In this document: positions 23,188-50,675 of the stretch, piece by piece
Layout: every line of letters starts with the position of its first letter
Numbering within the stretch: position 1 is the stretch's first letter
Source of the DNA: Candidatus Poribacteria bacterium
GTDB lineage: Bacteria; Poribacteria; WGA-4E; PCPOR2b
NCBI GenBank assembly: GCA_965116925.1
Contig: OZ220744.1
Location: forward strand, 3,040,001 to 3,104,000
DNA length: 64,000 nucleotides
Direction of reading: 5' to 3'
Position numbers and translations under genes: made by a program
The notes under the pieces: generated by a model
What the model saw: only the letters and a program-made list of their open reading frames with translations
Told to the model about the DNA's origin: nothing
Databases searched by the model: none

Positions 23188-23217
23188 AACGCATTTGGCA
23201 ACGTAGGGGACTTGCCA

Positions 23218-24561: not shown

Positions 24562-24611
24562 GAGTCATTTTCTCCTAAATACGTTGAAGGTTATGGAAAT
24601 GAGGAACAGCA

Positions 24612-25262: not shown

Positions 25263-25266
25263 TAAG

Positions 25267-30594: not shown

Positions 30595-30919
30595 AAGTTA
30601 CGCCCTTCAGTTTGTAGTAGCGCAATTCATTGCGCGGACGGGCGATAAATCGCTCTACTACAAACCTTTGTCCCTACTGTAGTTGCCCGATTCATCGGGC
30701 GTTGGAGATAGTGTCTTGCGGCGATAAATCGCCGAACTACAGCAGAGGCTCCATAAGGAGTCCGTAGGGAACGCAGATCTGCGTTCCCTACTGAAGTGCG
30801 TAACTCCTACAGACATTAAAAGTAGAAGTTTTTTGTACCACAATCTGTTAGATTGTGATCCCAAGCCGCAAACTAACAGTTTGCGCTACAGTGTCTCATT
30901 AATTCTAAGGTCCACTATA
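30592..30919. repeat. Cluster of a family-C element, GTAG-REP hairpins and a family-A right end
   Basis: TAGAAGTTACGC...TGCGTAACTCCTA (30592-30809), perfect palindrome 30764-30791, GTACCACAATCTGTTAGATTGTG unit also at ~37310 and ~63685. Confidence 0.75.
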
Positions 30920-31916: not shown

Positions 31917-33467
31917 TTAACCTCCGTATTCAAGGTTACGGCGTAAAATACTGCGATGTCCAAGATTGTTTTCAATGTGGTAGATGACAGTGTATGTCCC
32001 CGCTGCGGATTGAAATTTGTTAACATCAATAGTTGGAGTAAATCGCACAACCTCTGAACTGTCGTTCGGGATATCGAGACGCTGTGAGAAGGGACCGTAG
32101 CAGCGTTCACCTAACGGGTTGAGCACTTTCCATGTAACTTCGAGCCACGTTGGACGCGCATCACGACGAAGGTAAATGACAACCTCATCCCCTTCTAGAC
32201 CATCTTCGTTAAAACCAAGGACACCAAGTTCAGAGAGCATCTTGGCTGTCAGCGTTCGTGGGATATGTTCCAGATAACCTCTGCCGGGGATTGCCCGCCA
32301 AGTGCCGCCCGTTGCCCAAGCAAGCTGTTTGATGGGAAGGAAATTCAGCCCGATGACATCAACGCGAACATCTTGACGTTGTAACGTTTCGATAACCCCA
32401 TCTTGGCTATATTCCGATCTGCCATCGTAATCCGCATCGTGGAATGCCCCATCGCTCGCAAGAACGAAAAATCGTTGGGTGTTGCGTCGAAATTTGATTC
32501 TGTGTAGCGCAGCCATCAACGCATCTAATCCGGACTCGGCGAGGTCCCCACCGCCTTCAAACTTTATCTTATAAAGCCAATTTTTGAATTTACCGTGATC
32601 TGTTGTAACCCCTTGAACCTTCGGCTTTTTTTCTGTGACGTCGGCAAATGTTACCAAGCCAAAAGCTGCATCGTGTCCTGAGCGCGCGAAATGTTCAAAG
32701 AAGAGATCAATATAGGCGCGGATACCCCGAACATTGTCTTCCATGCTACCGGTCTTGTCGATGATAAAAACCAGATCAATCTCCTGAACGATTGCCGCAT
32801 CTGCCAGATTCCGGGCGAGTTCAGTCATCATCTTAATATAGTTGTCCCCCGCAGAGGTGCCCGAAGGAATGCTACCGCCCGAATTGCCGATAGGCATTCC
32901 GTCTAGTGCCTCGCCTCGTCTTCGCCCGACGCGCAACTTCGCCACACCGATCTCAGGAGAGCTTTCCGATAGATGACCGTCTCCTTCAGCCACATTGATA
33001 TTCTGATCTGCTGCCAGGGGCACCCCCTTTTCTGAAGCCTCTCTCGGCAGATTTACTGCTGTCATGGTAAGTGCTTTGGAATCTGGACGTGCTTTTGCGG
33101 ATAGTTGCGGTTGGGAAACAGGTCCAGTACCCTCCGAAGTCGGGGGCGAATCAATTTTCGACCCAATCGCTGTCCGTTGACCGGTTTCGAGTGAATCAAC
33201 CGTCAGCCAATTGGTCGTAGATGCGGGTTTTGGTTTAGGAGTGGGGGCTTCGGGAACAACCTTCGTTGGTTCGGGCGGTGGCGGCTCAACAGGCTCGGGT
33301 GGGACAACCACCGGGCGTCGGAAATGGGTGATGTCAACCTGAACAATATCATCAAAAGGCGGTAGTTGACGCTGCTCAATCTGTAAGTACATCATGATGA
33401 CTGCAACAATGAGGTGAATGATGAGCGAGCAGATTAAGGCTGGGCGAAAACTTCTGCGACGTAACAT
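31917..33467 (-). CDS. VWA domain protein with TonB-type TM anchor and Pro-rich linker
   Basis: TM with SLIIH, PPEPVEPPPPEP linker, MIDAS 'LVFIIDKTGSM', GGGD..ES.LDAL. Confidence 0.85.
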   Translation of the reverse strand: MLRRRSFRPALICSLIIHLIVAVIMMYLQIEQRQLPPFDDIVQVDITHFRRPVVVPPEPVEPPPPEPTKVVPEAPTPKPKPASTTNWLTVDSLETGQRTAIGSKIDSPPTSEGTGPVSQPQLSAKARPDSKALTMTAVNLPREASEKGVPLAADQNINVAEGDGHLSESSPEIGVAKLRVGRRRGEALDGMPIGNSGGSIPSGTSAGDNYIKMMTELARNLADAAIVQEIDLVFIIDKTGSMEDNVRGIRAYIDLFFEHFARSGHDAAFGLVTFADVTEKKPKVQGVTTDHGKFKNWLYKIKFEGGGDLAESGLDALMAALHRIKFRRNTQRFFVLASDGAFHDADYDGRSEYSQDGVIETLQRQDVRVDVIGLNFLPIKQLAWATGGTWRAIPGRGYLEHIPRTLTAKMLSELGVLGFNEDGLEGDEVVIYLRRDARPTWLEVTWKVLNPLGERCYGPFSQRLDIPNDSSEVVRFTPTIDVNKFQSAAGTYTVIYHIENNLGHRSILRRNLEYGG

Positions 33468-34532: not shown

Positions 34533-36704
34533 TCACTTTTCTGCCTTGAGCCGCCGCCACAGAGTGGTACGGCTAATACCTAGACGTTTCGCAGCCAACT
34601 TCGGTTTACCATCACACTGTTCTAAAACCCGTTGAATTAATTCTCGCTCCAGTGCAGCGAGGGGGTTTTCGCCCATGAGTGCTAGCGTTACAATGTCGTT
34701 CTGAGGCATAATTAGCTCCGTGGGCAGATGTTTCTTTTCAATGCAATCACCCGGACACTTGACAAAAGCGTGTTCAATGATATTTTCTAACTGTCGCACA
34801 TTGCCGGGATACGGGTATTCCATTAGAATATCTAACGCTTCAGAAGAGACGTCCTGAATAAACTTCTGGGTGTGCCGATTGAATTTCTGGATAAAGTGCT
34901 CAATCAGAAGGGGAATATCATCCCGCCTTTCTCGCAGCGGCGGTAGCTGAATCGGCACGATGTTCAGCCGGTAGTAGAGATCTTCCCGGAAATCCCCTGA
35001 TTCAATTGCGGTTTTCAGATCACGATTGCTCGCAGCGATGATTCGCACGTCTACCTTTTGCGTATGAGATGACCCAACCTTCTCAAACGATCCCTCCTGC
35101 AAGACTCGCAGCAGCTTTACCTGCATGGCAGGACTTAGATCTCCGATTTCGTCCAGAAAAATTGTCCCCCTGTCCGCTATCTCAAACCGTCCCTGTCGGG
35201 TGGTTGTCGCGCCCGTATATGCTCCCTTTATATGCCCAAACAACTCACTTTCGAGGAGACTCTCTGCCAACGCTCCACAGTTGACACTCACGAACGCTTT
35301 GTCTGTCCTCTCACTTCGATGATGAATCGCCTGGGCGACTAACTCTTTGCCGGTGCCACTCTCACCCTGAATCAACACGGTTGTTGACATCGGTGCCACT
35401 TGCTGAATCAGTTCATAGATTTCCTGCATCTGTCGATTTTTACCGATGAGGTTTTCAAATGTGTAAAGACTTTTCAATTGTTCGTTGAGTGCTTTTACCT
35501 CTGAAAGATTATGGGCGAACCCTTGGATAAACCGCTCCCCGCCGTGCTCAATGCCAACCACCCGCAGCCCTAACGGTAGCATACCCCCATCTCTTTTCGA
35601 GAGCTCTGTTTCAAAGGTGACTGGCGTTCCTTGAGGGATAAGTTTCTCCAACAATTGAGATATCCGCTGAAATTCTTCGCTCCTCATCAGATTGTGCAAT
35701 GATAGGCTGGAGAGTTCCTGATGTGTGTACCCCAGCCACACACACAGATTTTCATTGACCGTCACAAACGGTTGGGAAAGAGAGGGACAGATGAAGATTG
35801 CGTCGTTGGACATCTCAAAAAGGGTGCGGTATCGCGCGTTGCTTTGTGCAAGATCGCTGACCCATCGTCCTTTCTCGATCAGGATCGAGAGTTGCCCGAC
35901 AATCTGTTTGAGAAACCCAACGTGTGCCTCCGAAAACGCTCGGGCAATTGCACTGGTAAAAAATACAACACCAATCGGCTTTCCGCTTACCTTCAGCGGT
36001 AGCGTAAGGTTTGAGCGCATGCCTTCTTCAACCATAAGCCGGGTCCAGACACTGGGTCGTTTTTCGAGAACTTCTCGAAAATCATCAATAATTCGTGCCT
36101 CTCCTGATTCCAAAACACCCTCAAGCGTTGATCCGGCAATCCGCGCTGAAAAACCGTTGTCCAAAACAATCTTGCGGTCGGATTTTGTCTTGACCTGTAC
36201 TAACCTGCCTGAAGACTCGTCGATCAGTGCAATGCCCAAACGACTGTGTGGGACAACATCCTGAAGCCCAACATAGATATTCTCAAACACCTCATCAAGT
36301 GTCTTGCCGAGGTTAATCTGTTCAAGAATCTCATAGACCGGATCGGCTGTTTCTTTTTCCTCAAAAGTAACTTTGTCCTGTTGATCCGATGATTCATCCC
36401 TAGAATCAACAGCGATCCAAATCGCTTCTCTATCAATCTGGAGCGGATACGTCTTAACGGCTGGCGTGACAACCGGGCAGCCGGTTTTCAGGTCGTACTT
36501 CCACTCATGCCAGGGACAGGTGATGCTCTCCCCGTCCAAAACGCCTTCTCCAAGTGGTCCCCCCTGATGTGGACATGTGTTATTGATGGCGTAGAATTCT
36601 CCATCGGCGTTGAATACCGCCACACGTTCGTCCCCTAGCTTAACCACTTCGCTTTCGCCAGGTTCAATCTCCGATTTTTGTGCAACTTGCATCCATCTTG
36701 TCAT
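34533..36704 (-). CDS. Sigma54-dependent enhancer-binding protein: Rieske [2Fe-2S]-GAF-PAS-AAA+-Fis HTH
   Basis: CPHQGGPL...CPWH Rieske motif, GAF and PAS segments, GESGTGKE, GAYTGA, FLDEI, PGNVRQLEN, LGISRTTLWRRLK. Confidence 0.93.
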   Translation of the reverse strand: MTRWMQVAQKSEIEPGESEVVKLGDERVAVFNADGEFYAINNTCPHQGGPLGEGVLDGESITCPWHEWKYDLKTGCPVVTPAVKTYPLQIDREAIWIAVDSRDESSDQQDKVTFEEKETADPVYEILEQINLGKTLDEVFENIYVGLQDVVPHSRLGIALIDESSGRLVQVKTKSDRKIVLDNGFSARIAGSTLEGVLESGEARIIDDFREVLEKRPSVWTRLMVEEGMRSNLTLPLKVSGKPIGVVFFTSAIARAFSEAHVGFLKQIVGQLSILIEKGRWVSDLAQSNARYRTLFEMSNDAIFICPSLSQPFVTVNENLCVWLGYTHQELSSLSLHNLMRSEEFQRISQLLEKLIPQGTPVTFETELSKRDGGMLPLGLRVVGIEHGGERFIQGFAHNLSEVKALNEQLKSLYTFENLIGKNRQMQEIYELIQQVAPMSTTVLIQGESGTGKELVAQAIHHRSERTDKAFVSVNCGALAESLLESELFGHIKGAYTGATTTRQGRFEIADRGTIFLDEIGDLSPAMQVKLLRVLQEGSFEKVGSSHTQKVDVRIIAASNRDLKTAIESGDFREDLYYRLNIVPIQLPPLRERRDDIPLLIEHFIQKFNRHTQKFIQDVSSEALDILMEYPYPGNVRQLENIIEHAFVKCPGDCIEKKHLPTELIMPQNDIVTLALMGENPLAALERELIQRVLEQCDGKPKLAAKRLGISRTTLWRRLKAEK

Positions 36705-36797
36705 TTTTTCCTCCCATGCGTGAAACGAGGTGGTAATCTTTCTTTTTTTTTATTCCCCCTTTATACCATATAATACCATTTCCTGTCAACCTCTTCT

Positions 36798-36900
36798 GTT
36801 TCAAATGTGAACAAAGTTTCAAGATGAAACGACTTTGAGGATGGTATGCCTGCATTGATGCGTTGAACGCTGACGCTCACCAGCGGTTTCAAATTGAAAC
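36798..36900. promoter_or_regulatory. Candidate upstream activator sequences, GTTTCA-N3-TGAAAC
   Basis: Perfect inverted repeats at 36816-36830 and 36886-36900, imperfect at 36798-36812, about 90-190 bp upstream of the sigma54 site. Confidence 0.7.
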
Positions 36901-36988
36901 ACTCGCAGACTCACGTGGAGAGGTCCGTTGATCAGTCATTCATGCCTGCTATCCAGCACCGGTGCAAGTTCTGCCGTTTTTAGAGATC

Positions 36989-37004
36989 TTGGCATCAAAT
37001 TTGC
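36989..37004 (+). promoter_or_regulatory. Sigma54 -24/-12 promoter TTGGCATCAAATTTGC
   Basis: GG-N10-GC in TGGCA...TTGC context, divergent from the activator gene. Confidence 0.8.
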
Positions 37005-37008
37005 CTAA

Positions 37009-37433
37009 CTAGTACACTGTCAGGCAAATTATGATTGTCTATATGGATTGAGACTCATAATACTTCGTAGGGGTCGGGTCACCCGACCCCCTTGTTGATA
37101 TGCAAAACTTATATGACTGAGTACTAGGTTCTGTTGACATTTAACGGCCCGTAGGTTGGGTTGAACGGTTAAAACCCAATCCCTATCAAGTCCAATAGAG
37201 GCTCCGTCGTTCAACGACACCTGCTTATAGACAGATAGAGTGAAACCCAACTTCGCTTTTCATCGGGGTGTCTCCTTTTCAAAACATTATTCCCTAAAAA
37301 TGGTCTTTTGTACCACGATCTGTTAGATTGTGATCCCCGTCCGCAAGCTAACAGATTGTGCTACATTTGTCAGATTCCCCGATGATTACAGCGTTTGCCG
37401 AATCAGCAGTATCAAAATGTCAACACGTCCTAG
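37009..37433. mobile_element. Two adjoining CTAG-bounded MITEs (family F 37009-37127, family E 37124-37433)
   Basis: TIRs CTAGTACACTGTCA/TGACTGAGTACTAG and CTAGGTTCTGTTGACATTT/AAATGTCAACACGTCCTAG; family F recurs at 63585-63760. Confidence 0.7.
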
Positions 37434-37706
37434 GAAACCGTAACTTCGGTTGAAACAGGAATTGTCATCTACTGGGACCGACCGAACACAGGTGCTGCCG
37501 CCGCATTGGTAGCAAAACCCGTCGAACGCAGCGTCTCAAATGCGAAAGTACCCCTGAAAACCAGAGGTGGCGAGGAGGTGAGGGGGCGAGTTTTTACCCG
37601 CTTCCTCGCTTCCACCTGATTAGAGGGTTGGCTGTGCATTGGGAGTGCCTCATTAACTCTAAGGTCCACTATAAAAACGCTGCATTTTAAGTGAGGAGTG
37701 TGCAAA

Positions 37707-39476
37707 ATGGCTGAAATGAACTCTGGCTTCATACAGTGCATTCGTGTCGAAGACATCCCCGAAGGATCTATTATCGCCGCCAATGTCGAAGGCACTTCGG
37801 TCGCCTTGACCAATAGCGAAGGAAAGATCCGTGCCGTGGACAATCGTTGCCCCCACATGGGGTATCCCCTGAGTCAAGGAACAATTCATAACGGCATTCT
37901 GATCTGCCATTGGCATCACGCACGGTTTGATCTGGAGAGTGGATGCACATTCGATCCGTTTGCAGACGATGTGCAATCGTATCCGGTTAAAATCCAAGAT
38001 GGACAAGTTTATGTCAATGTCCACCCAAACGGGGATGACCCCACCGTGCGTTGGAAACGACGTTTGAATGAAGGGCTTGAGCAGAACATCAACCTAATTA
38101 TCGCTAAGGCAGTCATCGCGCTTCGTGCATATCATGCCGCAGCGGACGATATCGTTGAGGTTGGAGCCCTATATGGTGCACATGGACGCCGCGCTGGCTG
38201 GGGTCCCGGACTGACCATCCTCACAGCGATGGCAAATGTTGTCCCGCAACTTGCAGAAGAGGACAGAGTGCTGGCACTCTATCAGGGATTACTCCATGTT
38301 TCACAGGAGGTAGCGGCTTCCCCACCGCGTGTGGAACTCACACCTCTAGAGACAGATAAACACCCAATTGAACGTCTGAAAGAATGGTTCCGATATTTCA
38401 TCGAAGTCCGTAATGCCGATGGAGCAGAGCGTACGCTGCTGACAGCGATTTCGTCCGGCGGAACGCCTGCACAGGTCTGTGATATGATGGTCGCTGCAGC
38501 GACGGATCACTTCTACCGGGATGGTGGACACACACTCGATTTTATCAACAAGAGCTTTGAAGTGCTAGGACGGATCGGTTGGGATAAGGCGAGTAAAATC
38601 CTGCCAACGCTCGCCGGTGGCCTCGCGGGTTCATCGCGGGCTGAAGAAGAGAATCGGTGGCGCAGTCCGATAGATTTTGTCCCCCTACTCAACGATTCAT
38701 TTGAAGAATTGAAAGCACTTGCAGCACAAGGGGCAGGTAAACAGTGGGAGGGTGCTGAACAACTCGTCGAAGTTTTGCTAGGTGATGATCCCTTCGCCAC
38801 AGTGGAGGCACTCAAGTCGGCGTTCAAGGAGGGAGCGACGTTGACGGAATTGACCCAGACGCTTGCCTACGCGGCGGCGATGCGGATTGCCCGTTTTCAC
38901 ACAAAAAATGAGTTCGGTGACTGGATCGCAGTGCTACACACCTACACCTACGCCAATGCGCTTCATCAGTGTGCAAAGCGTGCCCCATCATTGGAACTTG
39001 CCCGCGGTATCTTTCATGGCGCAGTGGCAATCTACTTTGATCGCTGGTTTAACATGCCAGCAGCACGGCTACCACAACACCGACGGGAGACCAATACGCT
39101 TCCAACAGACGCAGATGAACTGCTCGAGGACTTCGTGAACCTCCTCAACACGCAAGCCAGAGCGGATGAGGCGGGTATGTATCTCTACCGCTACCTCTCG
39201 CTTGGTCACCCCCGCGCCGCTATCATCCAGAAACTGGGGCACGTCCTGTTGCGCGAAGATGCCGAGTTCCACTCCTTCCAGATGCTTGAAGCTGCACTCC
39301 ATCAAATGGAGGAGTTGGATGAGGAGCGAGCCCAGATGACGCTAGTTGCAGCTGCCCGGTACTTAGCAGCACACGCACCGACCGCCCGTGCGCTACGACA
39401 GACAGCAAATCTAGCCCTACGTCTCCATCGGGGCGAGGATCTCTCCGCTGACGATCCAAATGAAGTGGTCGAGTGA
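37707..39476 (+). CDS. Rieske [2Fe-2S] domain fused to a large uncharacterised helical domain
   Basis: NRCPHMGYPL...CHWH; about 470-aa C-terminal region homologous to 41209-43056; GAGGAG RBS. Confidence 0.88.
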   Translation: MAEMNSGFIQCIRVEDIPEGSIIAANVEGTSVALTNSEGKIRAVDNRCPHMGYPLSQGTIHNGILICHWHHARFDLESGCTFDPFADDVQSYPVKIQDGQVYVNVHPNGDDPTVRWKRRLNEGLEQNINLIIAKAVIALRAYHAAADDIVEVGALYGAHGRRAGWGPGLTILTAMANVVPQLAEEDRVLALYQGLLHVSQEVAASPPRVELTPLETDKHPIERLKEWFRYFIEVRNADGAERTLLTAISSGGTPAQVCDMMVAAATDHFYRDGGHTLDFINKSFEVLGRIGWDKASKILPTLAGGLAGSSRAEEENRWRSPIDFVPLLNDSFEELKALAAQGAGKQWEGAEQLVEVLLGDDPFATVEALKSAFKEGATLTELTQTLAYAAAMRIARFHTKNEFGDWIAVLHTYTYANALHQCAKRAPSLELARGIFHGAVAIYFDRWFNMPAARLPQHRRETNTLPTDADELLEDFVNLLNTQARADEAGMYLYRYLSLGHPRAAIIQKLGHVLLREDAEFHSFQMLEAALHQMEELDEERAQMTLVAAARYLAAHAPTARALRQTANLALRLHRGEDLSADDPNEVVE

Positions 39477-39828
39477 TGGTTTCCCATTAGGATTGTACTC
39501 GTGCAACTGATTGCGCGTCTTCCATCGCTGAATCAAATCTGCTATCCGTGCTAATGTGAAAGAGTTAAATACTGGTGGGTTGTAAACTTTCTATGCTTGG
39601 GACGTTTAAATCAAAAAGGACTTACGTGGTTGAAAGTTTGAAGCCAACCCTCCTGCCCTCTCCGGCCAGAAGACCAAGCGTTTGCGCCCCTATCAGGTTG
39701 TTTTGAACGCTTGATGCAATTAGAGGCGGGTAGTTTGGTGATTCATCGTCCTTGAACACACACCTCTCGACACCCAATATCGCGGAGAAGTAAGAGATTA
39801 CAGTTCAAATTTAAGGAGACTGCATAAG

Positions 39829-40881
39829 ATGCCTTGGAAATTCTCCTGTTTCGTGATTACACTCCTCTTTGTACCTTTCCTCCTTCAATGCAAGGCTTTG
39901 CAATTGTTGGGAGAACAACCACAAACGACTCAACAGGAGGTAAATGACACCATCTCGGAGACCACTTCTCGCGTTCGGTTAATCTACTTTACACCCCAAG
40001 ACCGTCCCTTCAAGCAAAGAATTGTCGATCAGATAGAATTACAAATGGGAGTCGTACAAACTTTCTTTGCAGACCAGATGGAAGCCCACGGCTTCGGGCG
40101 GAAAACATTCGCTTTTGAAACTGATGCGAAAGGGAGAGCGATTGTGCACCGAGTCAAGGGTCAGTTCCTCGATAAACACTATCTCTATAACACAACAAAT
40201 AAGGTCGCGGCAGAAATCGGAGAACGATTTAATCTTTCAAATAATGTCTATATGATTGTTGTTGATATAAGCGGTAAGTACATTAACAGAGCTATGGGCT
40301 TTGGAAGCTCCCGCCGCGGTGGTCAATCAGGCATTCTTTGGATAGCAAAAAGCGGTTTTCAGAGCAAAACCATTGCTCATGAACTGGGACACGCCTTTGG
40401 CTTATTACACGATTTCCGCAATGAGCGATTTCTCATGTCCTACGGTTCTTTTCATCTCTCCTCAACCCGACTGGAAAAACGTCAATTGTCCAAGGAAGCT
40501 GCAGAATTTCTCGATGCCAGCCGCTTCTTTAACCCTAGCAGGACGTTCTCCAGCGAATTTCAGCCGAAAATTAAGATTATTTCCCCACTCGAGTATCCAC
40601 CGAGGGCAGAAAGCATCCGTATCATTTTCGAGTTGAGCGACCCAGATGGATTACATCAGGCACGATTTCACACTAACCCCAATATCACTGACAAAAACTT
40701 GGCGAAGTTCAGTAGAGGCTCCCCCGCATTCAAAGCAGCCAAGCGGTTAAACGGACAAGAGATGACCGTTGAGTTTGTTTACAGATTATCCAAGGTTGAC
40801 GTTCACGATCTACGGCTTCAAGTCGTGGATTCACAAGGACACTTTGGGACAAAATCATTTTCCGTCCACCTTCAAAAGTAA
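39829..40881 (+). CDS. Exported metzincin-type zinc metallopeptidase
   Basis: Signal with possible lipobox LLQC, HELGHAFGLLH, Met-turn LMSY; homologous to the N-terminus of 59706-63407. Confidence 0.8.
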   Translation: MPWKFSCFVITLLFVPFLLQCKALQLLGEQPQTTQQEVNDTISETTSRVRLIYFTPQDRPFKQRIVDQIELQMGVVQTFFADQMEAHGFGRKTFAFETDAKGRAIVHRVKGQFLDKHYLYNTTNKVAAEIGERFNLSNNVYMIVVDISGKYINRAMGFGSSRRGGQSGILWIAKSGFQSKTIAHELGHAFGLLHDFRNERFLMSYGSFHLSSTRLEKRQLSKEAAEFLDASRFFNPSRTFSSEFQPKIKIISPLEYPPRAESIRIIFELSDPDGLHQARFHTNPNITDKNLAKFSRGSPAFKAAKRLNGQEMTVEFVYRLSKVDVHDLRLQVVDSQGHFGTKSFSVHLQK

Positions 40882-41101
40882 ATAGCTGTTACGCAGTTAA
40901 AGTGTAACAGGGTTGAATCAAATAGGGACGTATCACCACTCTGATAATCGAAACTTTCGCTTCATATCAGCGCGATCCCGACGAAAAGCGGTGTCGATCC
41001 AAGCGTAGAAACACTCGTAACGTGGACTCATACCTTCTATAAATAACCTATTTTCTCGCCAAGTGCATAACTCCTATAAAATGCAATACTCTCTAATTAT
41101 G

Positions 41102-41130
41102 TTGACAAGACTGACGAAACACGCTACACT
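41102..41130 (+). promoter_or_regulatory. Sigma70-type promoter TTGACA-N17-TACACT
   Basis: Near-consensus hexamers upstream of 41209. Confidence 0.6.
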
Positions 41131-41208
41131 TTGAACGAGTCAGATTCAATCAAAAAACGGCGGTAATTTATCACGTTTTACGTATCACGTGACAAGGAGG
41201 TTTATACC

Positions 41209-43056
41209 ATGAGTATTTCACCACGCACCTCTCAAGAAACACCGGCAGGTTCAATTAACTTTGAAGATCTCCCGACTGTAGATGTTGTGGAGGAAACCGA
41301 TCTGGTCTATCACCAACTCTGCCCCGCCGACACCTTTGGAGACGGCGATGGGAAACCTTTTCATGTAGATGGCACACACCTCGCTGTCTTTAAGTATCAG
41401 GATAAATTTTATGCGGTTGATAACCGGTGTCCGCACATGGGCTATCCGATGTCCGAAGGCAGTGTCCGAGATGGTGTGTTGATTTGCCACTGGCACCATT
41501 GGGAATTCGACCTCAAATCGGGCGGCTGCTTCCTTGAATTTGGGGACGATCTAAAGGCGTTTCCTGTTACGATACGCGATGATGGGTATCTGTACGTTGG
41601 GCTTACCCGCGGAGAGCGAGCCGCAGCGAAACGCCGCGTCATCGATCGCGGCAAGCGCGCGCTTGAACGAGGCCTCAAAGATCGGAGCTCCTTCTTCATT
41701 GCGAAGGCAGTCACAGCCCTCACCGATGCAGAGGCGACACCCCAAGAGATTATTCAGCAGGGACTTCACTACGGTGCTCACAAAAGCAGCGAGGGTTGGT
41801 CGTCCGGCGTAGCGATTCTTACGCTCGCAGCCAATTTGTGGGACGAAGTTGCCCCGAAAGATCACAACCTGTTTCTCGTGCATGGGCTTGTGCAGATCAG
41901 CCGTCGAACATCGGGGAGTTCGCGTCCATACCGTGCACCCTTTCCACAGATGGCAGAGGAGCACGACCTCACAACCCTCAAGCGATGGTTCCGTTATTTT
42001 ATTGATAAACGGGACAGGGGTGCTGCGGAGCGCATTCTGCTCACCCTAAATGACCGCGGATACGACAAATCGGTCATAGCGGATTTCGTGTTCACCGCCG
42101 CCACTGACTTCTACTTCACCGGCGATGGTCACGCCCTCGACTTTGCGAACAAGATGTTTGAGGCACTAGATTACATTGAATGGGACGGGGCACACGAAAT
42201 CTTGCGTCCCATTGTTGTTGACTTGGTCAGCCGGACGCGCCATGAGGAGACATCTCGGTGGGCGGACAGTGTACCGGTGTTGGAGCCGATCTTCGATCGT
42301 CTAGATGAAATCTGGCAGGAGAACCAAGCCAACGAGGCAGAACTCGATATTTCCGAGTTCACCCAAACGATGCTTGGCGACGATTTTGTGCCGATTGTTG
42401 CAGAGATTGAGGTGAAGCTTCGCGCCGGCGTGAAGCCTACCGACATCTGTCGAGCCATGACCTACGCTTCAGCGATTCGGACCGCCCGTTTCCATCTCAA
42501 GAATGAGGGGGATTGGCACGATGTAGCAAACATCTACTCCTACGCACACGCGCTCTACTGCACGTTCCACTACGCACCAAGTGCAAACCTTTTGCGAGGA
42601 ATCTTCCACGGTGCCGTGTTCCTGAACTATCTACGCTGGTTGAACATGCCAGCGGCACGTATCCCTCGTCCCGGTCAACGGCTGGATGAAACCTTTGACT
42701 CCGTTGATGAGATGCTGGATCGCTTTCAGGAATTTGCCGACTTCCAGAAGGTCTACGAAGCAGAAATCCTTGTAAACCAATATCTGGAGGAAGGGCACGA
42801 CGTTGACGCGCTCAAGCGCGCATTGGCTCATATTTTACTCCGTGAAGATGCAGAACTTCACATGTTCCAAGTGCTCGAAGTCGCCTTTAGGCACTATGCA
42901 CTCACTGATGATATTGAGGAGAAGCGGATGCACCTCCTCGCCGCGACCCGCTACATCACCGCACAGAAGTTGATGAAGAATATCCTCTGGTCAACCGAGA
43001 ATGCAGAACGTCTAGCACGGGGCGAGTTGCTCAGTGAACGTGAGGATGATAATTAG
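41209..43056 (+). CDS. Rieske [2Fe-2S] fusion protein, paralog of 37707-39476
   Basis: NRCPHMGYP...CHWHH; shared blocks GH.LDF.NK, ARFH.KNE.DW, W.NMPAAR, LLREDAE.H.FQ. Confidence 0.88.
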   Translation: MSISPRTSQETPAGSINFEDLPTVDVVEETDLVYHQLCPADTFGDGDGKPFHVDGTHLAVFKYQDKFYAVDNRCPHMGYPMSEGSVRDGVLICHWHHWEFDLKSGGCFLEFGDDLKAFPVTIRDDGYLYVGLTRGERAAAKRRVIDRGKRALERGLKDRSSFFIAKAVTALTDAEATPQEIIQQGLHYGAHKSSEGWSSGVAILTLAANLWDEVAPKDHNLFLVHGLVQISRRTSGSSRPYRAPFPQMAEEHDLTTLKRWFRYFIDKRDRGAAERILLTLNDRGYDKSVIADFVFTAATDFYFTGDGHALDFANKMFEALDYIEWDGAHEILRPIVVDLVSRTRHEETSRWADSVPVLEPIFDRLDEIWQENQANEAELDISEFTQTMLGDDFVPIVAEIEVKLRAGVKPTDICRAMTYASAIRTARFHLKNEGDWHDVANIYSYAHALYCTFHYAPSANLLRGIFHGAVFLNYLRWLNMPAARIPRPGQRLDETFDSVDEMLDRFQEFADFQKVYEAEILVNQYLEEGHDVDALKRALAHILLREDAELHMFQVLEVAFRHYALTDDIEEKRMHLLAATRYITAQKLMKNILWSTENAERLARGELLSEREDDN

Positions 43057-43074
43057 CGAGCCAAACAAACAACC

Positions 43075-43112
43075 AAAAAAGGGCGCACCCGAACCGGTGC
43101 GCCCTTTTTTTT
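43075..43112 (+). terminator. Rho-independent terminator
   Basis: AAAAAAGGGCGCACC-CGAACC-GGTGCGCCCTTTTTTTT. Confidence 0.85.
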
Positions 43113-43114
43113 AT

Positions 43115-43409
43115 CGCTCATGTTAAGATTTAGTGCAAAGAAACCGAGTTTTTTCTTCAAAACTCGGTTTCTCTTCGTACTTTGCACTTTCTTTTTATAT
43201 GAGCCCTTTTTATTGATTAGGACTTACGCAGTTGATATAAATACCGCCGCTGCCTTCGTGGCACGTCACCTGCTCTTGAAGAAATTGGGGGTTCCTAGTC
43301 TGTAATAGTGGGTACAGGTTGCCTAACCTGTACGGAGCATAATAGTAGGTACAGGTTGCCTAACCTGTACGGGGTGTGCGATGTTTGCCAGCGAAGTGCG
43401 TAACTCCTA
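43115..43409. mobile_element. MITE family B (43115-43205) followed by family C (43218-43409)
   Basis: B ends as at 7952; C ends TAGGACTTACGCA/TGCGTAACTCCTA with two 37-bp tandem hairpin units inside. Confidence 0.75.
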
Positions 43410-43593
43410 CTAACTATCGGTATATCATTTTTATCACAACGGTGTGGCACAGTTTCAACAATCTATTTGCGATCACGGGGTTCCCTCTGAAATCATAGGG
43501 CGTATCACAAACATCTGCAAGGTTATCCTGTCAAAGGGTTTAGCGAAACAATCAGTTGTGCCATAATCCCCTGTTTACGGTTCGAGATAACTG

Positions 43594-43609
43594 TGGCATG
43601 GGAATTGCT
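43594..43609 (+). promoter_or_regulatory. Sigma54 -24/-12 promoter TGGCATGGGAATTGCT
   Basis: GG-N10-GC in TGGCA...TTGCT context. Confidence 0.65.
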
Positions 43610-43637
43610 AACGGTCAATGCTCTAGGTAAATTTCGT

Positions 43638-43890
43638 GGCTTCATGTTAGGAAATCGTCCAACAGGAACCAAGTCTTTCCGAAAAAACTCGGTTCCTGTT
43701 AGTGTTAGGAGTTACACACTTCAGTTTGTAGTAGCGCAATTCATTGCGCGTTCTTCCCTCCCCATGCTTACGGGGGCGGGTGCCCTCAGGGCGCGGGAGG
43801 ACGGGTGATAAATCGCCGAACTACAAAGCTTTGACTGTTCAACTGCGTAAGTCCTAAGTGTGTATTTTGCACGTTCTTTTAAGATGAGCC
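43638..43890 (+). mobile_element. Family B-type MITE (TSD AATTTCGT) containing a family C element at 43706-43856 (flanked by AGTGT repeats)
   Basis: 8-bp and 5-bp direct repeats visible at both junctions of each element. Confidence 0.78.
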
Positions 43891-43973
43891 AATTTCGTTT
43901 GTTGACATACTCCCCGCCCTAAAGGACGAGGATTCTTGTGATTCCCTGTCCGATAGTTTTGGGAATTGCGCTA

Positions 43974-45110
43974 TCAACAAAGTGAGCCATCCGAAGATGG
44001 TCTTACAACTTCTTCTGCGAGGGTAGATGCCCCTACCCGGTAGATATTCATTGCAGCGTTGCGGTCTCTATCGTGTGTCGTGCCACAATCGTTACACCGC
44101 CATGTTCTATCACGGAGGTTCAACGCTTCATTAACAACACCGCAAACCGAGCAGGTTTTACTCGTTGGATACCACTTATCAATGAACACGATCTTGACGC
44201 CTTTTTTCTTAGCGATATACACCAACTTCTTGACGAAATCGGCAAAGCCGAGGTCGCTGACTTGGCGCCCCCAAAGGCTTTTCATACCTTTAAGGTTCAA
44301 ATCCTCAAGCCGTATCTCGTCGTATTCATCAGTGAGTTGGTGTGCAAGCTTCCAGTGGAAATCTGCGCGTTGCCGTTCAATCTTGCGGTGCTTCCGTGCT
44401 AAATTCAATCTTGCCCGTTCACGATTCTTTGACTGCTTCTTTGTTCGTGAATGCGCTCGGGTCGCACGTTTGATAGTATTGAGGCTGCGTTTGAAAAACT
44501 GGGGTGAGTCTATATCATGTCCGTTTGACCCAGTGAGATACCTGGTGAGACCGAAATCAAAGCCCGCGATTTTACCCGTCATAACCCGATTTAAGTACGG
44601 TTCCTCATAGTCCGTTAAAATACAGATATAGATGTCACCGAGAGTGTCCCGTTTAATCGTGCACCGTTTCGGGTTGCCATGCACATCACGGGATTTGAAA
44701 TACTGATAGATCCGTTTGCCTATCTGAATCTTGTTACCGGGCAGGAGTTTCCAACCCGCTTGTTTGAGTGTGAATGATTTATACTTGCGACGCGGTTTGA
44801 AACGGGGACGCCCCCACTTTTGACCGTTCGCACGGGCTTCAAACATCGCGTTATAGCCTTTGTCGATTCGTCCAACTACGTCCTGAATCGCTTGGCTAGG
44901 CAGCTGATTCCAATGGGCAAACTTCGATAGCCGTTTCAGCTTAGAGATATGACGCATCAATCTAAACTTATTGATATATTTGCCATAGATGGCGTGATAG
45001 CGTCGTTGAAGCGAAACACAGTGGTTCCAAACGTGAGCGTGACCATCTATCGTCTGATGCAACTCACGATTCCCGTGATTGGAATACATCTTGAACTTGT
45101 AGGTTTTCAT
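43974..45110 (-). CDS. tnpB: RNA-guided endonuclease TnpB
   Basis: RuvC residues GFDFG, LEDL, DRDRNAA; zinc finger CSVCG...CNDCG; N-terminal YKFKMY HTH region. Confidence 0.95.
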   Translation of the reverse strand: MKTYKFKMYSNHGNRELHQTIDGHAHVWNHCVSLQRRYHAIYGKYINKFRLMRHISKLKRLSKFAHWNQLPSQAIQDVVGRIDKGYNAMFEARANGQKWGRPRFKPRRKYKSFTLKQAGWKLLPGNKIQIGKRIYQYFKSRDVHGNPKRCTIKRDTLGDIYICILTDYEEPYLNRVMTGKIAGFDFGLTRYLTGSNGHDIDSPQFFKRSLNTIKRATRAHSRTKKQSKNRERARLNLARKHRKIERQRADFHWKLAHQLTDEYDEIRLEDLNLKGMKSLWGRQVSDLGFADFVKKLVYIAKKKGVKIVFIDKWYPTSKTCSVCGVVNEALNLRDRTWRCNDCGTTHDRDRNAAMNIYRVGASTLAEEVVRPSSDGSLC

Positions 45111-45234: not shown

Positions 45235-45417
45235 CACTGTTTGACGAACTAACGGGGTTGGTCCGTGCTGTATCCCCGCCTTAAAAGGCGGGGATACAGT
45301 ACGGAAGATTGGGTAAGGCACCGTTCCGATGCCATATTGAACTAACAGCGTTTGCCCAATTGGCGACTCCAAAACGGCAAGACGCTTCAACCTATTTTCA
45401 AAAAAGGAGTATTTTCC

Positions 45418-50120: not shown

Positions 50121-50675
50121 TAGATATTATAGGGTCGCTTAGTTCTTCTGTAGGAGGGATCTCCGAATCCCGACATCTCACTAAATAGCCCTATAGATAT
50201 TATAGGGTCATTTATAGTGACTTCAAAAAATAAAGAAACACTGGCACCCCCCCGGTAGGTGCGGTTTGTAACCGCACCGGTTTGACGTGTCCCATTAATT
50301 CTAAAATCTACTATAGTTTTCCATTTTAGGCCATGTCCCGTTGTTCGTAGTCGCACATTCTATCCACACCCGGTAGGCGGGGCATCTGGTCTCCCCGCCG
50401 TTGGGCGTCGCGCGTTCATTGTACATTGTTAAGGTAGGTATGGCTGTCGTCTTTAATCCGTGTAATCCGTTAATCCGTGTTAATCCGAGATTCAAACAAT
50501 AATATCCGGAGAATTAAATAGCCCTATAGATATTCGCTCATGTTAAGATTCAGTGCAAAGAAACCGAATATTCGTAGGGGTTGGGTCACCCAACCCTTAC
50601 GGCGGGCGGGGAGACCCCGCCCCTACGATTTCGCTTCGTGCTTTGCACTTTTTTTTAATATCAGCCTAGATATTA
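50121..50675. mobile_element. Stack of MITEs: D (50130-50193), D (50203-50526, containing A at 50213-50315), B (50535-50666)
   Basis: TAGATATT(A) recurs at 50121, 50194, 50527 and 50667, bracketing the elements. Confidence 0.82.

What the first reader, a model, noticed from the sequence alone, without database searches (positions are those of the whole stretch)
34533..43056. Rieske-sensing sigma54 regulon with two paralogous Rieske fusion proteins of unknown chemistry
Seen: an activator with an intact N-terminal Rieske motif (CPH...CPWH) ahead of GAF, PAS, AAA+ and HTH domains. It lies divergent from GTTTCA-N3-TGAAAC palindromes and a GG-N10-GC promoter. Downstream are two ~600-aa proteins with a Rieske domain and a long helical region. 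The two share His/Asp/Glu blocks (GH.LDF.NK, RFH.KNE.DW, REDAE.H.FQ) and I recognise no ring-hydroxylating oxygenase catalytic domain. Known: sigma54 activators commonly use REC, GAF, PAS or V4R inputs, and I know of no characterised Rieske input. Inference: a self-contained redox-sensing circuit controlling an uncharacterised class of self-reducing metalloenzyme, with the two paralogs possibly forming a heteromer.
Basis: partly seen in the sequence, partly recalled or inferred. Interest (0 to 1): 0.75.

Follow-up and report, generated by a model that had tools for sequence, protein, structure and literature searches.

The report
Rieske-fused helical enzymes with Rieske activator
A Poribacteria-like genome carries two old paralogues of a widespread, unnamed protein that joins an iron-sulfur (Rieske) domain to an all-helical domain shaped like a recently discovered class of fungal iron dioxygenases; one paralogue sits beside a sigma-54 gene activator that carries a Rieske domain of its own.

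Summary
The gene at 34533-36704(-) encodes a Rieske-GAF-PAS-AAA+-HTH sigma-54 activator. It is divergent from two exact GTTTCA-N3-TGAAAC palindromes and a TGGCAT-N5-TTTGC promoter. Downstream lie two Rieske + ~480-aa helical proteins, RF1 and RF2, 40% identical.

The interpretation needs three corrections.

1. The helical domain is not a fold orphan. Confident models of both paralogues (pLDDT 96-97) hit only BTG13/BruN/PaD (DUF4243 non-haem iron dioxygenases), at TM 0.33-0.49 and probability up to 1.00. Every other hit has TM <=0.17. No sequence-level link was found, and the 4-His-1-carboxylysine site is not evidently kept.

2. The family is large: 1654 clusters at 50% identity and >=598 genome loci, in bacteria and haloarchaea. 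It is usually a lone gene. The Rieske activator, the palindromes and the sigma-54 promoter accompany it in only 2 of 80 fetched loci, both the window's closest kin.

3. The circuit is not self-contained:
- No reductase gene lies nearby.
- RF2 has its own conserved sigma-70-like promoter.
- A peptidase-like gene and a ~421-nt repeat-bearing insertion interrupt the unit here.

Best reading: Rieske-oxygenase logic with a BTG13-fold catalytic domain, under lineage-specific control by a Rieske-input activator. This is a new variant of known kinds, of moderately high interest.

The parts
34533..36704 (-). Sigma-54 enhancer-binding protein with N-terminal Rieske [2Fe-2S] domain, then GAF, PAS, AAA+ (GAYTGA loop), Fis-type HTH; 723 aa
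   Evidence: Pfam domains. NCBIfam gives only below-cutoff matches through the AAA+ core (NifA, AtoC, NorR and others). Ligands C44, H46, C63 and H66 are invariant in 16 of 16 aligned homologues.
36798..36900 (.). Putative upstream activator sites: degenerate copy at 36798-36812, exact GTTTCA-N3-TGAAAC at 36816-36830 and 36886-36900. Their centres lie about 210, 193 and 123 nt upstream of the expected transcription start (~37016).
   Evidence: 2 exact matches, none in 100 shuffles. Conserved in L001 and L008 and absent from the 78 other loci. Binding by the activator is inferred.
36990..37004 (+). Sigma-54-type -24/-12 promoter TGGCATCAAATTTGC facing RF1
   Evidence: The block CTTGGCATCAAATTTGCC is identical in L001 and L008. 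The same pattern upstream of the family gene occurs only in those 2 of 80 loci. Function is inferred.
37010..37433 (.). ~421-nt insertion in the RF1 leader relative to L001 and L008. It holds REP-like hairpins (37070-37090, 37305-37368) that recur elsewhere in the window.
   Evidence: Alignment. Repeats at 63680-63743, 30828-30890, 50567-50596 and 12726-12752. The hairpin at 37070-37090 is flagged as terminator-like.
37698..39476 (+). RF1: Rieske domain (residues ~11-107) + ~480-aa all-helical BTG13-fold domain. Probable true start is ATG 37707 (589 aa).
   Evidence: AF2 model of residues 115-592: pLDDT 96.7, pTM 0.95, 23 helices. Foldseek.
39829..40881 (+). Metallopeptidase-like predicted lipoprotein (HELGHAFGLLHD), inserted with its flanks between RF1 and RF2 relative to L001. 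Probably not part of the system.
   Evidence: Weak Pfam hits to Metallopep and Reprolysin-type families. No homologue in any of the 80 loci. The L001 RF1-RF2 spacer joins the two window flanks.
41102..41130 (+). Sigma-70-like promoter TTGACA-17-TACACT upstream of RF2, followed by a CACGT-rich inverted repeat at 41169-41193
   Evidence: 10 of 12 matches. Conserved in L001. Function is inferred.
41209..43056 (+). RF2: divergent old paralogue of RF1 (40% identity), with the same two-domain build; 615 aa
   Evidence: AF2 model of residues 135-615: pLDDT 96.0, pTM 0.94. Foldseek. Own orthologue group at 72-98% identity in Poribacteria and Latescibacterota. Not sister to RF1 in a rough NJ tree.
43075..43110 (.). 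Bidirectional terminator-like hairpin after RF2
   Evidence: 15-pair stem, flanked by A and T runs. Weak sub-threshold Rfam hits at the same place.

Best explanation
RF1 and RF2 belong to a large, unnamed family. An N-terminal ferredoxin-type Rieske [2Fe-2S] domain is fused to a ~480-residue all-helical domain with the fold of the BTG13/BruN/PaD (DUF4243) non-haem iron dioxygenases.

Most likely they are redox metalloenzymes that follow the logic of Rieske oxygenases but use a different catalytic domain:
1. An unlinked reductase or ferredoxin reduces the Rieske cluster.
2. The cluster hands single electrons to a metal centre in a buried polar pocket.
3. That pocket is formed by conserved stripes on several helices. 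In P0002 numbering these are H278/D281/N284/K285/E288, E316/E317/W321, R396/N404/D408/W409/H414 and E520/D521/H525/Q528.
4. O2 or another oxidant is activated there on an unknown substrate, possibly anionic, since five Arg are near-invariant.

In this Poribacteria lineage only, RF1 has come under a dedicated sigma-54 activator. The activator binds the GTTTCA-N3-TGAAAC sites and drives the TGGCAT-N5-TTTGC promoter. Its AAA+ engine is gated by an N-terminal module made of its own Rieske cluster plus GAF and PAS. The Rieske domain probably reports the redox state of the same electron supply, and GAF/PAS may bind a small molecule. RF2 is transcribed from its own sigma-70-type promoter.

Shown: domain architectures, fold similarity, conservation, distribution, and co-conservation of the sites.
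Inferred: metal binding, electron path, O2 chemistry, DNA binding, and the sensing role of the Rieske domain.
For: Architecture:
-.
- The Rieske domains are most like the ferredoxin components of ring-hydroxylating oxygenases (PDB hmmsearch, best E 4.3e-14).
- All four cluster ligands are invariant in 17 of 17 family members.

Fold:
- RF1 C-domain model: pLDDT 96.7, pTM 0.95. Its top PDB hit is 8yxs_A (BruN) at E 2.4e-3, probability 1.00, TM 0.37/0.39 over 479 columns. BTG13 entries score probability 0.47-0.87 and TM 0.33-0.41. All other listed hits have TM <=0.26.
- RF2 model, independent, from a sequence 40% identical to RF1: pLDDT 96.0. It hits BTG13 7y3w at probability 1.00 and TM 0.44/0.47; 7y3y at 0.99 and TM 0.46/0.49; BruN at 0.87; PaD at 0.69-0.72. 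All other hits have TM <=0.19.
- PaD has 22 helices (PMC11371914, passage). Our model has 23.

Candidate metal site:
- Conserved polar residues, in 55 sequences: H278 53/55, D281 53/55, K285 51/55, E288 52/55, H414 47/55, E520 55/55, D521 53/55, H525 53/55, Q528 54/55.
- Within the domain, His 164, 300 and 411 and the pattern H411-x-x-Q414 fall near the published ligands H166, H308/H317 and H386-x-x-K389 / H394-x-x-K397 of BruN and PaD (passages). This match rests on position only.

Taxa are mostly aerobes: haloarchaea, Chloroflexota, Gemmatimonadota, cyanobacteria, Actinomycetota.

Regulation:
- Palindromes and promoter are identical in L001 and L008, within an intergenic region that otherwise varies.
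- They are present only where the Rieske activator is present.
- The sigma-54 interaction domain and HTH_8 are intact.

Precedents:
- OrpR, an Fe-S-sensing sigma-54 activator (PMC8359166, abstract).
- ThnA3, a Rieske-type ferredoxin that feeds pathway redox state into regulation (PMC4814904, abstract).
Against: - TM-scores stay below 0.5 and identity is 10-14%.
- No sequence method links the families: Pfam at E<=10 on 55 members, and PDB phmmer and hmmsearch.
- The named-cluster language-model search gave no usable hit.
- The 4-His-1-carboxylysine site of BTG13 enzymes is not evidently kept. Only two His are >=96% conserved and a third is 85%, and that third is Asn in RF2.
- I could not obtain coordinates or a residue-level superposition. 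Clustering of the conserved residues, and their distance to the Rieske cluster, are therefore untested.
- No conserved neighbour gene hints at a substrate or a reductase: 109 immediate neighbours fall into 88 clusters.
- No reductase gene is in the window.
- BTG13-type enzymes need no external electrons, so the role of a Rieske partner has no precedent in that fold.
- Two of the 8 long or odd family members scanned, chosen from the 150 listed representatives, are fused to signalling outputs: an ECF sigma factor and a nucleotide cyclase. This fits a sensor better than a catabolic enzyme.
- The activator link holds in only 2 of 80 loci.
- In this window a 421-nt hairpin-rich insertion separates the promoter from RF1 and might uncouple them.
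Confidence: 0.45

Rival explanations
1. The Rieske + helical module is mainly a sensor or signal-transduction device, not a metabolic enzyme. It would read redox state, O2 or a ligand and pass the signal to partner regulators. In this window RF1 would be a regulatory component induced by the activator.
For: - Two family members carry signalling outputs on the same polypeptide. P0130 is ECF sigma (r2 + r4) + Rieske + helical domain. P0136 is Rieske + helical domain + class III nucleotide cyclase, with the module in the usual sensor position.
- The gene is usually alone, with no pathway context.
- Regulators recur next to it in some clades: ArsR-like in 3 loci, MerR in 2, ECF sigma near it in the Latescibacterota loci.
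Against: - Only 2 fused forms were seen among the 8 long or odd forms scanned, out of 150 listed representatives. Their cluster sizes could not be checked (one search did not complete), so they may be rare or assembly artefacts.
- About 30 near-invariant polar residues in a 480-aa domain, with the fold of an enzyme family, look more like an active site.
- Enzyme-like domains fused to cyclases are not rare (general knowledge, not tested here).
Confidence: 0.2
2. The helical domain binds a different cofactor, for example a b-type haem held by H278 and H525 with the conserved Arg on the propionates, or a dinuclear metal site. The protein would then work as an electron-transfer protein or reductase rather than an O2-activating iron enzyme. 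The likeness to BTG13 would be fold only.
For: - Only two His are near-invariant, together with five near-invariant Arg.
- The BTG13 ligand set is not kept as such.
- There is no sequence-level relation to DUF4243.
Against: - Both paralogue models find all three solved DUF4243 enzymes and nothing else above TM 0.26.
- The conserved His and the H-x-x-Q pattern fall near the published ligand positions.
- No haem-protein structure appears among the hits.
Confidence: 0.15
3. The activator's Rieske domain is not the signal receiver. GAF and/or PAS would sense the effector, and the Rieske domain would be structural, an oligomerisation aid, or a relic.
For: - GAF and PAS are established sensor domains of sigma-54 activators and both are present and well conserved.
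- No characterised Rieske sensor was found in the literature searches.
Against: - All four cluster ligands and the surrounding motif are invariant in 16 of 16 aligned members, down to ~48-50% identity in that region. This argues for a cluster that matters.
- Fe-S-based sensing by a sigma-54 activator has a precedent in OrpR (abstract).
Confidence: 0.25
4. RF1 and RF2 form an obligate heteromer, co-regulated as one operon by the activator.
For: The two genes are neighbours here and in L001. RF2-type proteins and Rieske activators appear to share two further genomes, judged only by identical longest-contig lengths.
Against: - 78 of 79 loci with the domain have a single copy within 10 kb.
- RF2 is not sister to RF1 (rough NJ tree without support values).
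- RF2 has its own conserved promoter and no palindromes.
- An unrelated gene separates the two here.
Confidence: 0.1

Closest known systems
BTG13 / BruN / PaD / GedK: DUF4243 ('questin oxidase') non-haem iron dioxygenases
   Same: All-helical fold of similar size: 440-465 aa with 22 helices, against ~480 aa with 23 helices here. These are the only PDB structures that resemble both RF1 and RF2 models. Conserved His lie at comparable positions, with an H-x-x-K against H-x-x-Q pattern near the C-terminus.
   Different: - No detectable sequence similarity.
- TM only 0.33-0.49.
- The 4-His-1-carboxylysine site is not evidently conserved.
- The known members are stand-alone, mostly fungal or plant natural-product enzymes that take their electrons from a hydroquinone substrate (PMC12173810, parts 1-2 read).
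- This family is prokaryotic, fused to a Rieske domain, and sits outside biosynthetic clusters.
Rieske non-haem iron oxygenase alpha subunits (e.g. naphthalene dioxygenase, KshA, carnitine monooxygenase)
   Same: An N-terminal Rieske domain with CxH...CxxH, followed by a larger domain expected to hold a metal site. The Rieske domain is of the ferredoxin/oxygenase type. An external reductase is needed.
   Different: The C-terminal domain is all-helical, not the usual catalytic domain of these enzymes. No Pfam or NCBIfam ring-hydroxylating catalytic model matches. PDB oxygenase hits cover the Rieske part only.
Sigma-54 enhancer-binding proteins with redox or metal-sensing inputs (OrpR, NorR, NifA)
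   Same: AAA+ sigma-54 interaction domain, Fis-type HTH, N-terminal regulatory module with GAF and PAS, divergent target promoter with upstream palindromes. OrpR uses an Fe-S cluster for redox sensing (abstract).
   Different: The input here includes a Rieske [2Fe-2S] domain, which the searched literature does not describe for this protein class. The protein scores below the curated cut-off of every NCBIfam equivalog. The family is small: 16 clusters found, and the only source name among them is a Poribacteria MAG.
ThnA3-ThnY-ThnR regulatory branch of tetralin dioxygenase
   Same: A Rieske-type ferredoxin of an oxygenase electron chain reports redox state and flux to the transcriptional machinery (abstract). 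This is the same idea proposed here for the activator's Rieske domain.
   Different: There the ferredoxin is a separate protein acting through a flavoprotein on a LysR-type activator. Here the Rieske domain is part of the sigma-54 activator itself. No experimental link exists.

Membership tests
DUF4243 / BTG13-type non-haem iron dioxygenases | All-alpha fold of ~22 helices, ~440-465 aa | tested here: met
   Models with pLDDT 96-97 and 23 helices. Foldseek top hits are BruN, BTG13 and PaD at probability up to 1.00 and TM 0.33-0.49. All other hits have TM <=0.26 (RF1) or <=0.19 (RF2). TM <0.5 means the match is distant.
DUF4243 / BTG13-type non-haem iron dioxygenases | Sequence membership (match to the family's profile or to solved members) | tested here: not met
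   No Pfam family other than Rieske matched more than 4 of 55 members at E<=10. No BTG13, BruN or PaD hit by phmmer or profile hmmsearch of PDB at E<=10. That Pfam holds a DUF4243 model is recalled, not shown by a call.
DUF4243 / BTG13-type non-haem iron dioxygenases | Iron site of four His plus a carboxylated Lys (e.g. BruN H63, H166, H308, H386, K389) | tested here: inconclusive
   Conservation in 55 sequences:
- H278 and H525: 53/55 each
- H414: 47/55 (Asn in RF2)
- H440 and H559: 38/55 each
- K285: 51/55
- Q528: 54/55, three residues after H525, where BruN and PaD have the Lys
The match is by position only; no residue-level superposition was possible.
DUF4243 / BTG13-type non-haem iron dioxygenases | O2-dependent C-C cleavage of hydroquinone-type substrates | not testable with these tools
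   Needs enzymology. No pathway context is available.
Rieske non-haem iron oxygenase (alpha subunit) | Rieske [2Fe-2S] domain with CxH...CxxH | tested here: met
   Pfam Rieske E 9.5e-17 for RF1 and 1.3e-16 for RF2. C51, H53, C70 and H73 are invariant in 17 of 17.
Rieske non-haem iron oxygenase (alpha subunit) | C-terminal catalytic domain of the ring-hydroxylating type with a 2-His-1-carboxylate iron site | tested here: not met
   No such Pfam or NCBIfam match. The domain is all-helical. PDB oxygenase matches cover profile positions 1-105 only.
Rieske non-haem iron oxygenase (alpha subunit) | Dedicated reductase (and ferredoxin) encoded with it | tested here: not met
   No ferredoxin-NAD(P) reductase-type gene in the window's annotated ORFs or among the recurrent neighbours. 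Many true oxygenases also lack a linked reductase, so this is weak evidence.
Sigma-54 bacterial enhancer-binding protein | AAA+ sigma-54 interaction domain with the GAFTGA-type loop | tested here: met
   PF00158 E 3.7e-73. The loop reads GAYTGA in P0001 and GAFTGA or GAFTDA in relatives. The motif name is established knowledge.
Sigma-54 bacterial enhancer-binding protein | C-terminal DNA-binding HTH and upstream palindromic sites | tested here: met
   HTH_8 E 4.5e-13. Two exact palindromes lie 123 and 193 nt upstream of the expected start. Binding itself was not tested.
Sigma-54 bacterial enhancer-binding protein | Target promoter with the -24 GG / -12 GC elements | tested here: met
   TGGCATCAAATTTGC at 36990-37004, identical in L001 and L008. 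Use by sigma-54 was not tested, and rpoN was not looked for.
Sigma-54 bacterial enhancer-binding protein | Membership in a named equivalog (NifA, NorR, AtoC, FhlA ...) | tested here: not met
   All NCBIfam matches are far below their curated cut-offs, for example NifA 389 bits against 529, and they cover the AAA+ core only.

The most novel reading that the evidence does not exclude
RF proteins would be a third, so far unrecognised build of Rieske oxygenase, spread over bacteria and haloarchaea (>=1654 sequence clusters). In it the Rieske cluster feeds a BTG13-fold all-helical iron centre with a changed ligand set: about three His plus Gln or carboxylates, in place of 4-His-1-carboxylysine. This would turn a substrate-reduced dioxygenase scaffold into an externally reduced oxygenase. 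In one Poribacteria lineage the enzyme would be governed by the first Rieske-input sigma-54 activator, whose cluster taps the same electron supply and so couples expression to electron flux.
Probability: 0.25. Interest if true: 0.8.

Novelty: new variant of a known kind. Interest (0 to 1): 0.62.

Why it matters
If the reading holds, a protein family now labelled only 'Rieske (2Fe-2S) protein' in hundreds of genomes, from sponge-associated Poribacteria to haloarchaea and marine Chloroflexota, gets a testable identity. It would be a Rieske-coupled member of the BTG13 fold, an iron-enzyme class known only since 2022 and almost only from fungal natural-product pathways.

That would widen both the BTG13 superfamily (new ligand set, prokaryotic, externally reduced) and the concept of Rieske oxygenases (a second kind of catalytic domain).

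The Rieske-GAF-PAS activator adds a new kind of input domain to sigma-54 activators. It also offers a compact system (activator, two palindromes, one promoter) for testing whether a Rieske cluster can act as a transcriptional redox sensor.

Tried and rejected
- Sequence routes to a function for the helical domain all failed: Pfam and NCBIfam, Pfam at E<=10 on 55 members, and PDB phmmer and profile search. In the PDB searches, only chance-level hits such as 6-phosphogluconate dehydrogenase (E 0.0066) fell outside the Rieske part.
- The protein-atlas feature search gave unnamed 'hypothetical' clusters of 462-485 aa at scores 0.86-0.87. When restricted to named clusters it gave no usable hit. Neither call ran a structure search.
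- Gene-neighbourhood analysis of 80 loci found no conserved partner.
  - 13 of 81 sources had no focal ORF in my filtered ORF set and were left out of the neighbour tables: L007, L008, L012, L023-L026, L030, L031, L039, L068, L070, L080.
  - Seven of these were displaced by a longer antisense ORF.
  - The activator and copy-number counts were therefore repeated by tblastn on the raw DNA.
- Rfam on 36000-44200 gave only sub-threshold hits.
- Complex prediction on the RF1 and RF2 helical domains returned no verdict (ipSAE 0.00, 0.00; mark 0.32). This is neither support nor evidence against binding.
- The first related-loci run, with the 55-sequence alignment, failed for lack of a conserved stretch. 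It was re-sent with a 17-sequence full-length alignment.
- Maximum-likelihood tree tools could not be loaded. A BLOSUM62 neighbour-joining tree without support values was used instead and is only indicative.
- The listing of cluster members for the fused forms did not complete, so their abundance is unknown.
- Rejected idea: that the activator's Rieske domain was copied from RF1 or RF2. It is only ~30-38% identical to them. Its nearest non-activator relatives are Rieske domains fused to YedZ-like ferric-reductase domains, at 36-46% identity.
- Supplements of the BTG13, BruN and PaD papers were not consulted. They hold the alignments that could bear on ligand mapping.

Full report
**1. What is in the sequence**

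The minus-strand ORF 34533-36704 encodes a 723-aa protein. Its Pfam hits are Rieske (4-85, E 9.4e-22), GAF_2 (134-277), PAS_9 (300-402), Sigma54_activat (419-586, E 3.7e-73), AAA_lid_14 and HTH_8 (682-721). The cluster ligands read C44-P-H46 ... C63-P-W-H66. NCBIfam matches (NifA, AtoC, NorR and others) cover only the AAA+ core and all lie far below their curated cut-offs. The protein is therefore a sigma-54 enhancer-binding protein of no named type.

The 993-nt intergenic region contains:
- two exact GTTTCA-N3-TGAAAC palindromes, at 36816-36830 and 36886-36900. These are the only two exact matches in the window, and none occurred in 100 shuffles;
- a degenerate third copy at 36798-36812;
- a -24/-12-type element TGGCATCAAATTTGC at 36990-37004 on the plus strand.

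The promoter match is not significant on its own, being one of 7 one-mismatch matches against 4.18 expected.

Downstream lie RF1 (ORF 37698-39476) and RF2 (41209-43056, 615 aa). The RBS, and the 589-aa length of RF1's homologues, point to ATG 37707 as the true RF1 start. RF1 and RF2 are 40% identical over 572 residues (E 9e-133). Pfam sees only a Rieske domain at each N-terminus.

**2.

A 350-aa metallopeptidase-like predicted lipoprotein (39829-40881, motif HELGHAFGLLHD; weak Pfam hits) lies between RF1 and RF2.

In the closest relative, L001 (a Poribacteria MAG chromosome, RF1 92% identical), RF2 follows RF1 after 340 nt. That spacer is the window's RF1-downstream flank joined to the window's RF2-upstream flank. 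The peptidase-like gene and its flanks are therefore an insertion here, or a deletion there.

The RF2-upstream part carries a sigma-70-like TTGACA-17-TACACT (41102-41130; 10 of 12 matches) and a CACGT-rich inverted repeat (41169-41193). Both are conserved in L001. No palindrome or sigma-54 element lies there. RF2 is therefore probably transcribed on its own.

Right after the -12 element the window also has a ~421-nt insertion (37010-37433) that is absent from L001 and L008. It contains GC-rich and REP-like hairpins that recur at 63680, 30828, 50567 and 12726, and one of them is flagged terminator-like. The RF1 leader is ~690 nt here against ~225 nt in the relatives. A bidirectional terminator-like hairpin follows RF2 (43075-43110).

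**3. The family**

With residues 115-592 of RF1, an exhaustive HMMER search of 1.84 billion representatives gave 1654 proteins at E<=1e-3, 950 at <=1e-10 and 286 at <=1e-30.
- Most listed members are 570-600 aa, with the helical domain starting near residue 110-120. They therefore carry the Rieske domain.
- Some of ~420-480 aa lack it.
- The language-model atlas also pointed to unnamed clusters of 462-485 aa.

Of these, 598 were confirmed and 80 were kept. The kept loci come from Poribacteria, Latescibacterota, Chloroflexota (Dehalococcoidia, Thermomicrobia, Nitrolancea), Gemmatimonadota, Terriglobia, cyanobacteria, Actinomycetota and at least eight haloarchaeal genera. Source names are only 'Rieske (2Fe-2S) protein' or 'nitrite reductase/ring-hydroxylating ferredoxin subunit'.

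RF2 has its own orthologue group, 72-98% identical, in Poribacteria and Latescibacterota. It is not sister to RF1 in a rough neighbour-joining tree without support values. The two are old paralogues, not a recent tandem duplication.

**4. The fold of the helical domain**

AlphaFold2 with a 55-sequence alignment gave a very confident all-helical model for RF1 115-592: pLDDT 96.7, pTM 0.95, 23 helices. Foldseek results against the PDB:

| Hit | E-value | Probability | TM |
|---|---|---|---|
| 8yxs_A (BruN) | 2.4e-3 | 1.00 | 0.37/0.39 over 479 columns |
| BTG13 (7y3x, 7y3y, 7y3w) | 0.19-0.53 | 0.87, 0.77, 0.47 | 0.33-0.41 |
| All other listed hits (transporters, designed repeats) | | | <=0.26 |

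As a replicate I modelled RF2 135-615 (pLDDT 96.0, pTM 0.94). Foldseek results for that model:

| Hit | Probability | TM |
|---|---|---|
| BTG13 7y3w | 1.00 | 0.44/0.47 |
| BTG13 7y3y | 0.99 | 0.46/0.49 |
| BTG13 7y3x | 0.96 | 0.44/0.47 |
| BruN 8yxs | 0.87 | 0.43/0.46 |
| PaD 8z4q, 8z4r | 0.69-0.72 | 0.38-0.41 |
| All other hits | | <=0.19 |

These hits are the three solved members of the DUF4243 class.
- BTG13 is an atypical non-haem iron dioxygenase. Its iron is held by four His and a carboxylated Lys, and it cleaves a C-C bond of an anthraquinone hydroquinone (PMC12173810, parts 1 and 2 of the text read).
- BruN uses H63, H166, H308, H386 and Kcx389 (PMC11575538, passages).
- PaD has 22 helices and uses H63, H166, H317, H394 and K397 (PMC11371914, passages).

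The relation is at fold level only. Identity is 10-14% and TM is below 0.5. No sequence method connects the families.

**5. Is the BTG13 metal site kept?**

Near-invariant polar residues in 55 aligned sequences, in P0002 numbering:
- R238, E244, R245
- H278, D281, N284, K285, E288
- E316, E317, W321
- R396, N404, D408, W409
- E520, D521, H525, Q528
- R554, R564

His conservation is H278 53/55, H525 53/55, H414 47/55 (Asn in RF2), and H440 and H559 38/55 each.

Within each stretch the spacing (i, i+3/4, i+7) puts the residues on one face of a helix, using the DSSP helices. That is what a buried polar pocket in a helical bundle looks like.

In domain numbering, His 164, 300 and 411 and Gln 414 fall close to BruN and PaD ligands 166, 308/317, 386/394 and Lys 389/397. 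So H-x-x-K there corresponds in position to H-x-x-Q here.

This is a match by position, not by superposition. The tools return no coordinates or residue-level alignment, so I could not test whether these residues cluster or how far they are from the Rieske cluster. The fairest statement is that a metal site at the BTG13 location is plausible, with a changed ligand set.

**6. Genomic context across 80 loci**

I extracted ORFs from all loci and from window 27001-53000, clustered them, and annotated the recurrent and adjacent clusters.
- The commonest co-located cluster, a short-chain dehydrogenase, occurs in 13 of 81 sources.
- The 109 immediate neighbours fall into 88 clusters of mixed function: peptidases, MFS transporters, oxidoreductases, regulators, integrases, TnpB.
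- There is no recurrent reductase, ferredoxin or pathway.
- 13 sources were left out of these tables because my ORF filter lost the focal gene or the locus was cut. The key counts were therefore repeated by tblastn on raw DNA.

Counts:
- A sigma-54 AAA+ domain occurs in 3 of 80 loci (L001, L008, L022).
- The Rieske activator occurs in 2 of 80 (L001, L008).
- Two copies of the helical domain occur in 1 of 79 (L001). L008 ends inside RF1.

The exact palindrome occurs only in L001 and L008. A sigma-54-type pattern lies within 250 nt upstream of the family gene only in those two. RF1 orthologues in other Poribacteria (L002 at 73%, L017 at 59%) and in Latescibacterota (L003-L006, 71-72%) have no such activator within 10 kb.

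The window itself has no ferredoxin-reductase-type gene.

**7. The activator family**

A search with residues 1-125, keeping the length window of the whole protein, found 34 proteins at E<=1e-3 among 181 candidates.
- 16 of them (48-90% identical in that region) have the full Rieske-GAF-PAS-AAA+-HTH build. The only source name among them is a Poribacteria MAG.
- Most of the rest are Rieske domains fused to YedZ-like ferric-reductase domains.

In an alignment of the query with 15 of those 16 (P0277 was left out), C44, H46, C63 and H66 and the neighbouring motif are invariant, and the sigma-54 contact loop reads GA(Y/F)T(G/D)A.

No paper in the searched library combines Rieske with sigma-54 enhancer-binding proteins: 0 papers, and none of the 12 listed of 49. 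Two precedents for the idea exist:
- OrpR, a sigma-54 activator that senses redox through a [4Fe-4S] cluster in its PAS domain (abstract);
- ThnA3, a Rieske-type ferredoxin of a dioxygenase chain that diverts electrons to the regulatory system (abstract).

**8. A complication**

I scanned eight longer or odd family members. Two carry signalling domains:
- P0130 (843 aa) is an ECF sigma factor followed by Rieske and the helical domain. It has Glu at the H278 position.
- P0136 (734 aa) adds a class III nucleotide cyclase at the C-terminus.

I could not check how many sequences support these forms (one search did not complete). They keep open the reading that the module is a sensor.

**9. Explanation and verdict**

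The best-supported reading is that RF1 and RF2 are Rieske-coupled metalloenzymes with a BTG13-fold catalytic domain. That is the logic of a Rieske oxygenase with the catalytic domain exchanged. They depend on an unlinked electron donor.

In this Poribacteria lineage, RF1 alone was placed under a dedicated sigma-54 activator whose N-terminal Rieske-GAF-PAS module gates the AAA+ engine.

It overreaches on 'uncharacterised class', 'self-contained', 'regulon' and 'heteromer'.

No searched paper links Rieske with BTG13, DUF4243 or questin oxidase: of the 3 papers holding at least 2 of the 4 terms, none holds 'Rieske'. Searches found nothing relevant either. I therefore rate it a new variant of known kinds, with moderately high interest. 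The decisive residue-level and biochemical tests remain to be done.

Noticed in passing
window 43974-45110 (-), 43889-44014 (-): A TnpB / IS605 OrfB-like gene (OrfB_IS605 + Cas12f1-like TNB domains) lies just downstream of RF2. A weak, sub-threshold HgcC-family RNA hit overlaps its 3' end (E 0.021, 24 bits against a gathering score of 50) and may be its guide RNA. A relative (same cluster c133) lies next to the family gene in L040.
   Followed up: partly
window 37010-37433; repeats at 63680-63743, 30828-30890, 50567-50596, 12726-12752: A ~421-nt insertion in the RF1 leader, relative to L001 and L008, is built from REP-like palindromic units that recur in other intergenic spots of the window (87-91% identity). 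The TAG at both junctions may be a target duplication.
   Followed up: partly
window 39570-41075 (gene 39829-40881): A metzincin-like (HELGHAFGLLHD) predicted lipoprotein with its flanks is inserted between RF1 and RF2 relative to L001. No homologue was found in any of the 80 loci.
   Followed up: partly
window 41169-41193: A CACGT-rich inverted repeat (TATCACGTTTTACGTATCACGTGAC) lies between the sigma-70-like promoter and the RF2 ribosome-binding site. It is conserved in L001 and could be an operator for an unknown regulator.
   Followed up: no
proteins P0130 and P0136 (family members): These are fused forms of the family. P0130 is ECF sigma factor + Rieske + helical domain (843 aa). P0136 is Rieske + helical domain + class III adenylate/guanylate cyclase (734 aa). 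Their cluster support could not be checked.
   Followed up: partly
proteins P0279/P0316 and P0283/P0344: Rieske-activator clusters and RF2-type clusters share identical longest-contig lengths (5,156,246 and 5,501,248 nt). This suggests the activator co-occurs with RF2-type genes in at least two further genomes. Adjacency is unknown.
   Followed up: no
window 45352-47856 (+), 59706-63407 (+): Two very large bacterial WD40-repeat proteins (834 and 1233 aa), and VWA-domain proteins at 31917-33467 and 47987-49441.
   Followed up: no
window 22603-25809 (-): An ECF sigma factor gene is followed by three DUF4252 proteins and an Omp85/DUF4252 protein (20479-22590), which looks like an envelope-stress-type operon. 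A second ECF sigma factor is at 53292-53864.
   Followed up: no
L079 8855-8869 and 8948-8962 (+): Two sigma-54-type pattern matches lie in the 405-nt gap upstream of a glyoxalase-like gene that directly precedes the family gene in an Anaerolineae MAG. No sigma-54 activator lies within 10 kb.
   Followed up: no
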